NCBI GenBank assembly: GCA_951406725.2
Contig: OX597822.1
Coordinates: 3,906,001-3,970,000, forward strand
DNA from: Octopus vulgaris
Lineage: Eukaryota
DNA length: 64,000 nt
Reading direction: 5' to 3'
The notes beneath the pieces were generated by a model that did not search any database, was not told the DNA's origin, and was given only the letters and a program-made list of their open reading frames with translations. Shown one piece after another: positions 8,202-55,012 of this stretch; positions within the stretch are counted from its first letter, which is position 1; every line of letters begins with the position of its first letter. Both the position numbers and the translations under genes were made by a program.

Positions 8202-8840
8202 CAAAGTAAAGTGTAATGGAATATATCAAATGAATTACACAATTGAAGTCCAAAAACTTTCACTAAAACATATCCATCATCGAAGGTATTATCTTTCTAA
8301 CTGTTATTAATCTAATTTCATATAGAAGCCATCATAAAGACCTCAGCAAACCGGTTTATCAGTAAAATTTAGAATTAGTAAAAGCATATTATTCGATTTG
8401 GAAATTGAAACGATATCACCACTATATCACACGGACACACACATACACATACATAGACAAATACACACATACATACACACATGCATACATACATACATAT
8501 ATACATGCACACCACACACACACATGCACACACAACCGCAAACGCCCACCTTCAGCCACACACACATACACACACGTACATATATGATATAACGGTCTAA
8601 ACCCAAGTCTGTGGTAACGCATTCAAAATTTTCTGTTTAAAACTACACGCACGCGTGCGCACAAACACACACATATACAACACACACACATATACATATA
8701 CTGTACATATATATGTATATATATAAAGTTAATCCAAACAAGAAAACACAAAAAAACACAACAACGCGAGGACGTGGAACAAATATAGTATTATTGGACG
8801 CTCAGGAAAGAAGGAAATTTATGTATATTTATGTATATGT

Positions 8841-18508: not shown

Positions 18509-18711
18509 GTAATTCTGAAACTAAAGGAGAAATAATTTAATTAAATTCGATTACGTAAAAATGTTGAAACTATGCATGGTACAAAGTTGAAGGGGATAAA
18601 TGTTTTTATTTCTCCTTTAGTTTCAGAATTACTACTATTTTGCGGTTTGAGTTTAGCTGCTCTTTCAAGTGAGTTGAACGGCCTGTCAGGGTCATTCCTT
18701 AATACTATTGT

Positions 18712-18749
<38 letters not shown>

Positions 18750-18953
18750 TCAAAATTAATGCTCGGATTTAATTTAATTTTATTAAATTCGATTACGTAA
18801 AAATGTTGAAACTATGCATGGTACAAAGTTGAAGGGGATAAATGTTTTTATTTCTCCTTTAGTTTCAGAATTACTACTATTTTGCGATTTGAGTTTAGCT
18901 GCTCTTTCAAGTGAGTTGAACGGCCTCTCAGGGTCATTCCTTAATACTATTGT

Positions 18954-19010
<57 letters not shown>

Positions 19011-19030: not shown

Positions 19031-19473
19031 TTACATATTTTCTCTTTATTTGAGCAAATTCGGCTTACAGCTGTTTCCTGTAGTCATTATAGGTCCTTTA
19101 CAAATGGGTTTACTCAATTGGTGTATTGATCAACTAAGCAAAGCTGAACGACCTAAAGAATTAATGCTAATTTCGGCAAAGCCATTTCTGGGAAGATATG
19201 TGATGACTATTATGTTAACTTGTTTTATATATCACTCTGTTTAAAACCTGGTTTGCCCGGATCCCACTGACGGATTTACAATATAGAATTGTGATCAACC
19301 ATAACATTGGACCCGATCATAAGAATACCTGGATATTTTCACTAATCTAAGTAATATTGTTAGCTTGGTGTGAAGTATTTTCCCCGGATTAATAATCCCT
19401 CGCTATTAGGTATATATATATATATATAAATGAAAGGATGGAGTCGAACGACGATTTTAACAAAATCCCTTTA

Positions 19474-19556
19474 CTCTCGACTCATGTTTCGAAGGCTGCA
19501 TATTCCTAATTCCGAAGGAATAAAGGGTGCATTATGCCGCCATCTCATCAGGAAAG
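19474..19556 (-). ncRNA. Type I hammerhead ribozyme, intact catalytic core
   Basis: Minus strand CUUUC-CUGAUGA-GAUGGC..extended stem II..GCCUUC-GAAAC-AUGA-GUC|GAGAG; stem I CUUUC/GAGAG. Confidence 0.8.
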
Positions 19557-19735
19557 ACAAGGAACTTATGTCAGCACCTGAAGAGCAAAAACGTTTAGAT
19601 GACTGCCCACATGATGTCCACAGTAATAATGATGTCCACAGTAATAATAAGGAAACACTCATTATCACTGTGGACATCATGTGGGCAGTCATCTAAACGT
19701 TTTTGCTCTTCATGGTGCTGACATAAGTTCCTTGT

Positions 19736-19818
19736 CTTTCCTGATGAGATGGCGGCATAATGCACCCTTTATTCCTCCGGAATTAGGAATATGCAGCCTT
19801 CGAAACATGTGCCGAGAG
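19736..19818 (+). ncRNA. Type I hammerhead motif, cleavage triplet mutated (GCC)
   Basis: Mirror copy CUUUC-CUGAUGA..GAAAC-AUGU-GCC-GAGAG; keeps the palindromic ACAUGU. Confidence 0.7.
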
Positions 19819-19993
19819 TAAAGGAATTTTGATAAAATCGTCGTTCGACTCCATTCTTTCATTTATTCATAGTTAAAAAAACACACAAATTTACACACGA
19901 GAACATATAGCTTCAACCGTGTTTTCTGACGTGAATTTGCTACCCAGGTATCGGTTAACCGAATTATCCATACTAGGATAATTCATTCACCTT

Positions 19994-20055
<62 letters not shown>

Positions 20056-39566: not shown

Positions 39567-43499
<3,933 letters not shown>

Positions 43500-54808: not shown

Positions 54809-54875
54809 CATACCGCGTATGTATCGTTGGCGATTTTTTCCTCCGTCTTCCCTTCCTTGGATCTTTCTTTTTCCT

Positions 54876-54910
54876 GTTTCTGACGAAGAGCTTCTCTCGA
54901 AACGTTGAAT
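54876..54910 (+). ncRNA. Minimal type I hammerhead motif in TA-inserted element 54813-55013
   Basis: GUUU-CUGACGA-A-GAG CUUCU CUC-GAAAC-GUU-GAAU; a terminal piece of the same element lies at 8722-8817. Confidence 0.6.
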
Positions 54911-55012
54911 CCTCCTCCTTTCGTTCCTTTCCTGAGCGTCCAATAACACTATACTTGTTCCACGTCCTCGCATTGTTGAGTTTTCTCCTGTTGCTTTCAT
55001 ATTTGGATTAAC

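What the first reader, a model, noticed from the sequence alone, without database searches (positions are those of the whole stretch)
19426..19996. Intact hammerhead ribozyme paired with its own antisense mirror copy in a 200-bp fold-back element
Seen: the minus strand at 19474-19556 has all core nucleotides (CUGAUGA, GAAA, GUC triplet), a 5-bp stem I and a long extended stem II. The plus-strand mirror at 19736-19818 has GCC at the triplet but keeps the palindromic ACAUGU in stem III. Known: Penelope-like elements (PLEs) and retrozymes carry type I hammerheads whose tiny palindromic stem III works through dimers, and PLE insertions often carry an inverted end copy. Inference: a transcript from either strand contains both a ribozyme motif and its complement, so cleavage would compete with forming a long dsRNA, which is a likely ADAR substrate in a cephalopod.
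Basis: partly seen in the sequence, partly recalled or inferred. Interest (0 to 1): 0.75.

Follow-up and report, generated by a model that had tools for sequence, protein, structure and literature searches.

The report
Penelope retroelement stub with mirrored hammerheads
The two mirror-image self-cutting RNA motifs are really in the sequence, but they are the end piece of a common jumping gene plus its usual flipped copy, each copy has picked up a mutation likely to weaken it, and a read-through RNA is predicted to zip into one long double strand before either could fold.

Summary
In detail: two opposite-strand type I hammerhead motifs lie in 207-bp arms (96% identical) between (TA)n runs. The element is a 5'-truncated Penelope-like retroelement (PLE) end with an inverted pLTR copy. 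Longer copies run into an RT + GIY-YIG frame closest to the Hydra clade. The layout is routine: 22 of 30 close copies carry an opposite-strand arm, and it is in print (PMC4209133, PMC8557442). This scan noted it before on other DNA. Across 38 copies picked by their RT, the core is conserved and the stems covary, so the family ribozyme is under selection. 'Intact' is overstated here: the minus copy has a private change breaking the dimer palindrome, the plus copy lost U16.1. Read-through makes the antisense arm first, and predicted hammerhead helices fall to zero. No locus-specific RNA or editing evidence was found. Side findings in the family: a post-ribozyme strand predicted to pair with the ORF start codon, two 3' ends about 150 nt apart, and loss of the linker zinc finger with (TA)n insertion kept.

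The parts
19411..19427 (.). (TA)n left flank (insertion target; no target-site duplication can be read)
19426..19634 (-). Inverted partial pLTR copy; outer end at the family's inner fixed end (site B)
   Evidence: 16 of 22 inverted arms end at query 204-212
19474..19556 (-). Type I hammerhead motif, 11 core bases present, GUC, long helix II; private U>A in the helix III palindrome at 19482
19437..19446 (-). Anti-start strand of the inverted arm (one private change)
19611..19648 (.). Inversion junction with an 18-bp tandem duplication, likely a template jump
19650..19866 (+). Sense pLTR, 5'-truncated, up to end site B
19736..19818 (+). Hammerhead motif with private U16.1>C at 19812 (GCC), predicted inactive
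   Evidence: U in 38 of 38 family copies
19846..19855 (+). Anti-start strand: in full-length elements predicted to pair with the ORF start codon region; the partner is absent from this stub
19867..19995 (+). Tail between end sites B and A, 129 nt here (about 20 nt deleted near 19904), about 150 nt in the family
19996..20053 (.). (TA)n right flank

Best explanation
This is a decaying, protein-less insertion of a Penelope-like retroelement: the 3' pLTR with its hammerhead plus an inverted partial copy, likely made in one event when the element's enzyme cut both strands of a TA repeat and copied the RNA from its two fixed start sites. Shown: the anatomy, the parent RT + GIY-YIG frame, two fixed ends, and selection on the family's hammerhead. 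Inferred: two-sided priming. The family ribozyme most likely cleaves as a dimer through an 8-nt palindrome in tandem transcripts. At this locus the mirror pair is a by-product; a read-through RNA would form a 207-bp hairpin and not cleave.
For: 3051 candidate places. Upstream extension into RT (DKT, YRDD) and GIY-YIG; full pLTR-ORF-pLTR copy L051 with pLTR 85% identical to the window; tandem 899-aa elements with one hammerhead per 3.6-kb unit. 22 of 30 close loci have an opposite-strand arm, 18 of 30 two complete opposite hammerheads, with variable spacing (three loci on C14 are near-identical duplicates). 28 of 30 end in (TA)n. Core columns average 0.36 parsimony steps vs 2.12 elsewhere, p=1.3e-4; only N7 and H17 vary freely, G10.1-C11.1 shifts to G-U in 13 of 38. 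12 of 25 pairs show two-sided changes, 0 of 500 shuffles. Each arm has 4 private differences plus one shared. Among close copies private changes hit core and non-core alike (3/469 vs 81/6654, p=0.37, low power). PMC4209133 reports opposite-strand min-HHR pairs 100-700 bp apart; PMC8557442 describes the inverted 5'-truncated copy; PMC11167929 shows cleavage and extension on both strands and two internal RT starts.
Against: No cleavage was measured. Rfam does not detect the motif. The tail is about 150 nt, not the published 30-40 bp. The shuffle control ignores relatedness. Folding is equilibrium only. The minus copy keeps all 11 core bases and could still cleave weakly with a wild-type partner in trans.
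Confidence: 0.9

Rival explanations
1. The locus is a working switch in which ribozyme cleavage competes with duplex formation and ADAR editing.
For: A 207-bp, 96% duplex is predicted at about -400 kcal/mol. Editing correlates with dsRNA abundance across metazoans (PMC5625713, listing and abstract start only). The minus copy keeps the core; helices I and II form at 0.7-0.99 when the motif is folded alone.
Against: Antisense arm is made first in both directions; helix probabilities are 0.0 for starts at 19995 or 19760. Only one sense copy per strand, so no dimer partner in cis. Both copies carry private helix III lesions. The layout recurs with random spacing.
Confidence: 0.05
2. The element is a non-autonomous fold-back unit (retrozyme- or MITE-like) that spreads as such.
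For: Short, ORF-less, high copy; animal retrozymes derive from PLE pLTRs (10.64898/2026.07.22.740005, part 1 of 5).
Against: Inversion points differ between loci (1 to 3055 nt apart), arms run on into the ORF, no head-to-tail short units among the 30 loci, and the junction is unique to this locus.
Confidence: 0.04
3. The hammerhead-like motif is conserved for a non-catalytic role (protein binding) and never cleaves.
For: In PAc, hammerhead mutants did not affect insertion in vitro and no RNA-seq ends mapped to the cut site (PMC11167929); min-HHR activity is low (PMC4209133).
Against: Variation follows catalytic rules: N7 free, H17 is C or A and never G, palindrome kept in 36 of 38.
Confidence: 0.15

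Closest known systems
5'-truncated EN+ PLE insertions with inverted pLTR and tail (PMC8557442 Fig. 2 legend; PMC4209133)
   Same: Truncated 3' pLTR, adjacent inverted copy, opposite-strand hammerhead pair 100-700 bp apart, one-sided tail, microsatellite target.
   Different: Tail about 150 nt instead of 30-40 bp; helix II extended by a 55-nt insert.
Hydra clade of C-terminal EN+ PLEs (PMC8557442 section 11; Hydra-1_Obim in its supplement)
   Same: DKT motif, C-terminal GIY-YIG without CCHH, CxxC and CxH round the conserved E/N, hammerhead, (TA)n insertion; RT motifs match Hydra-1_Obim by eye.
   Different: RWL for RWK, unit 3.6 kb, and no CxCX5C linker in this lineage. Its hammerhead and leader differ from Hydra-1_Obim.
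Dimeric PLE hammerheads with palindromic helix III (PMC4209133; Lunse et al. as cited in PMC6765202)
   Same: Type I, 2-bp helix III, palindromic loop, short helix I, long helix II.
   Different: 8-nt palindrome kept through A-U, G-U and G-C versions; both window copies have lost 2 of 8 pairs.
Poseidon_Ac internal RT initiation (PMC11167929)
   Same: Two fixed 3' ends, AT-rich target.
   Different: Hammerhead and both ends lie upstream of the start codon here (cut to AUG about 260 nt); in PAc they lie inside the ORF.
Metazoan non-LTR retrozymes (PMC7229834, listing only; 10.64898/2026.07.22.740005)
   Same: Non-coding, type I hammerhead, PLE-derived.
   Different: No short tandem units; copies are truncations of a coding element.

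Membership tests
EN+ Penelope-like element | Single ORF with RT and C-terminal GIY-YIG | tested here: met
   In family members by motif; absent from the window stub. Pfam gave no significant hit for L031.
EN+ Penelope-like element | pLTRs from tandem or partial tandem arrangement | tested here: met
   L049/L050/L054 tandems, L051
EN+ Penelope-like element | Hammerhead in the pLTR | tested here: met
   38 of 47 RT-selected loci; 9 had no 3' copy in the stretch fetched
EN+ Penelope-like element | 5' truncation and inverted 5' copy | tested here: met
   22 of 30
EN+ Penelope-like element | One-sided tail of 30-40 bp | tested here: inconclusive
   One-sided tail present but about 150 nt
Hydra clade | DKT motif; EN without CCHH, with CxxC and CxH | tested here: met
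Hydra clade | RWK motif | tested here: inconclusive
   RWL in this lineage; RWK, RWR, RWA in sister groups
Hydra clade | CxCX5C linker | tested here: not met
   Absent in L050, L051, L052, L103; present in L097, L099, L101 and 38 of 53 database homologues. Filed as Hydra-like, not as a canonical member.
Hydra clade | (TA)n insertion | tested here: met
   28 of 30
Hydra clade | RT phylogeny groups with reference Hydra families | not tested
   Reference sequences were read by eye only
Type I hammerhead ribozyme | Core CUGANGA, GAAA, NUH with three helices | tested here: met
   Minus copy and family; plus copy fails at U16.1
Type I hammerhead ribozyme | Match to Rfam hammerhead models | tested here: not met
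   likely due to the long helix II (inference)
Type I hammerhead ribozyme | Self-cleavage | not testable with these tools
   needs an in vitro assay
Non-LTR retrozyme | Short head-to-tail units, each with a hammerhead, no ORF | tested here: not met

The most novel reading that the evidence does not exclude
In Hydra-like PLEs the hammerhead cut releases a 200-265 nt leader that closes on itself: a strand just behind the cut pairs with the ORF's start codon and encloses both reverse-transcription start sites, coupling ribozyme cleavage, translation of the RT and template choice. The helix appears with different sequences in two lineages of about 44% protein identity (10 bp on the coding side; 13 bp on the 5' side). 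This is a family property; the window stub holds only the 5' strand.
Probability: 0.3. Interest if true: 0.6.

Novelty: new member of a known kind. Interest (0 to 1): 0.22.

Why it matters
The locus itself matters little: it is one of thousands of PLE stubs, and it warns that mirror ribozyme pairs in such genomes are insertion by-products. The family is of more use. The role of PLE hammerheads is still open (PMC8557442, PMC11167929). This genome holds young tandem elements with intact 899-aa frames, a perfect dimer palindrome and a conserved leader helix over the start codon, which makes a cleavage-translation link testable. The lineage also inserts in (TA)n without the linker zinc finger proposed to direct that bias.

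Tried and rejected
Rfam: no hammerhead hit; miRNA hits at the junction come from the fold-back and are below gathering scores. Pfam did not recognise the L031 RT or EN. Sequencing runs: no RNA holder listed. Four guessed-RNA contig sets hold family pieces, but the two alleles checked (19482, 19542) read as other letters in all covering contigs, and A>G/T>C differences were not in excess; unique flanks had no cover in the one guessed-RNA run laid. These are contigs from other individuals and count neither way. No empty-site joint was listed. No host exon was recognised among 119 frames of 90 aa or more (by eye; short exons would be missed). Script errors: the intact-copy counts were off by one and redone; the pairing strings were out of register and replaced; five leaders missed by a pattern were run with a simpler doublet shuffle. 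Anti-start helix, results against: p=0.065-0.09 for L104 and L076, p=0.12-0.20 for the third lineage; by eye it is not seen in Hydra-1_Obim or Hydra-1_Crog, 7 bp in Hydra-1_Ajap. Paper searches listed no paper on a PLE start-codon helix; subscription papers are missing from that library.

Full report
Observation. The minus strand carries stem I, CUGAUGA, a long helix II, GAAA and GUC at the stated places, with the cut predicted at 19479/19478; the plus strand carries the mirror with GCC. The arms are 207 nt and 96.1% identical, joined by an 18-bp duplication, and flanked by (TA)n. The plus arm runs on for 129 nt. Rfam does not detect the motif. The window is repeat-rich with no host exon recognised by eye.

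What it is. The plus arm has 3051 candidate places, of which 40 were scored and 30 fetched. Copies share the 3' end and differ at the 5' end. Longer ones run into a GIY-YIG and an RT frame. An RT search gave 116 scored places, many with intact 899-aa frames. L051 is a full element whose pLTR is 85% identical to the window; L049, L050 and L054 are 3.6-kb tandems with one hammerhead per unit. Of the 30 close loci, 22 carry an opposite-strand arm, 18 carry two complete opposite hammerheads, and in 9 both copies are better preserved than here. Inversion points vary from 1 to 3055 nt, 16 of 22 inverted arms end at one site, and 28 of 30 sense ends abut (TA)n. The set was chosen by likeness to the window, and three C14 loci are duplicates.

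The ribozyme. Of 47 loci chosen by their RT, 38 had a 3' hammerhead region in the stretch fetched. The 11 core columns average 0.36 changes on the tree against 2.12 for 89 others (p=1.3e-4); none has a shared variant, against 57 of 89. N7 and H17 vary as hammerhead rules allow (rule recalled). The 8-nt helix III palindrome pairs fully in 36 of 38. Twelve of 25 pairs show two-sided changes, above all 500 shuffles and all slid controls; that control ignores relatedness. So the parent lineages kept a dimer-type hammerhead. The window copies did not: the minus copy has A at 19482 where 38 of 38 have U (37 if a 2-nt deletion copy is set aside), giving two A-A mismatches in a self-dimer; the plus copy has C at U16.1, also 0 of 38. 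Each arm has four private differences. Among close copies private changes are not significantly rarer in the core (p=0.37, low power), which fits decay after insertion.

How it works. Inferred from PMC11167929 (parts 1-2 of 4 read): the protein cuts both strands of AT-rich DNA and starts reverse transcription at two internal sites. Here copies end at two sites about 150 nt apart; the sense arm ends at the outer site and the inverted arm at the inner one. Both sense motifs point outward, so read-through from either side makes the complement first. Helix probabilities are 0.7-0.99 for the motif alone and 0.0 in the whole element or for starts at 19995 and 19760; they return only for starts near the junction. 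Helix III never forms in the monomer, and no second sense copy lies in cis. A duplex, if transcribed, could be edited like any inverted repeat, but no transcript of this locus was shown.

Known systems. PMC4209133 (parts 1-2 of 4 read) reports min-HHR pairs 100-700 bp apart on opposite strands, no monomer cleavage and low dimer activity. PMC8557442 (passages, section 11, supplement rows and parts 52-53 of 59) describes the inverted copy, the tail and the Hydra clade, with Hydra-1_Obim from an octopus. This lineage meets DKT, the EN cysteine pattern, hammerhead and (TA)n, has RWL for RWK, and lacks the CxCX5C linker that two sister groups and 38 of 53 database homologues keep. It is filed as an EN+ PLE, Hydra-like. 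PMC6765202 and PMC13725137 were seen as passages, the retrozyme preprint as part 1 of 5 (its supplements were not seen). Earlier notes of this scan reached the same reading on other DNA.

Family-level lead. Folding eight full leaders predicts a 10-bp helix between a strand behind the hammerhead and the start codon region (79 of 80 cells paired, one two-sided change) and a 12-bp helix round the outer end site with four two-sided pairs. Against shuffles, 7 of 9 leaders of this lineage reach p<0.05. A lineage of 38-47% protein identity has a different 13-bp helix over its AUG in 8 of 8 leaders (p<=0.005). A third lineage is not significant in 2 of 2. Leaders within a lineage are not independent. 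In all three lineages the inner end site lies 10-30 nt behind this strand. Ribozyme cleavage can drive cap-independent translation in viruses (PMC13725137). Function is untested; a relic inversion or a pure RT-binding role remains possible.

Verdict. Real, ordinary, decaying PLE stub; new member of a known kind; interest 0.22, carried mostly by the family-level leads.

Noticed in passing
L050, L051, L052, L103 vs L097, L099, L101: The window's lineage lacks the CxCX5C linker zinc finger yet inserts in (TA)n (28 of 30), which argues against that finger being required for the bias.
   Followed up: partly
L051:3142-3431, L099-L102, L109, L113, L115, L116: Predicted helix pairing a post-hammerhead strand with the ORF start codon, with different sequences in two lineages.
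   Followed up: partly
G000:C1:119.51-119.53 Mb (L049, L050); C24:21.62-21.63 Mb (L054): Tandem 3.6-kb elements 99.9% identical with intact 899-aa frames and a perfect helix III palindrome: a young, possibly active family.
   Followed up: partly
window 54874-54911 +: A second, minimal hammerhead motif (CUGACGA, short helix II) of another TA-flanked repeat; a related piece lies at 8728-8817 on the minus strand.
   Followed up: partly
L050:6689-9091: A different GIY-YIG element fragment as a 1037-bp, 99.6% inverted pair next to the tandem.
   Followed up: no
L032 (G000:C12:45.13 Mb): A 3.5-kb near-perfect palindrome (98.7%) made by the same family.
   Followed up: no
window 18533-18989: 242-bp tandem duplication, 98-99% identical, 440 nt left of the element.
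   Followed up: no
window 40018-41800 -: Long open non-LTR RT frame beside a 1.7-kb (ATT)n/(ATTATC)n array.
   Followed up: no
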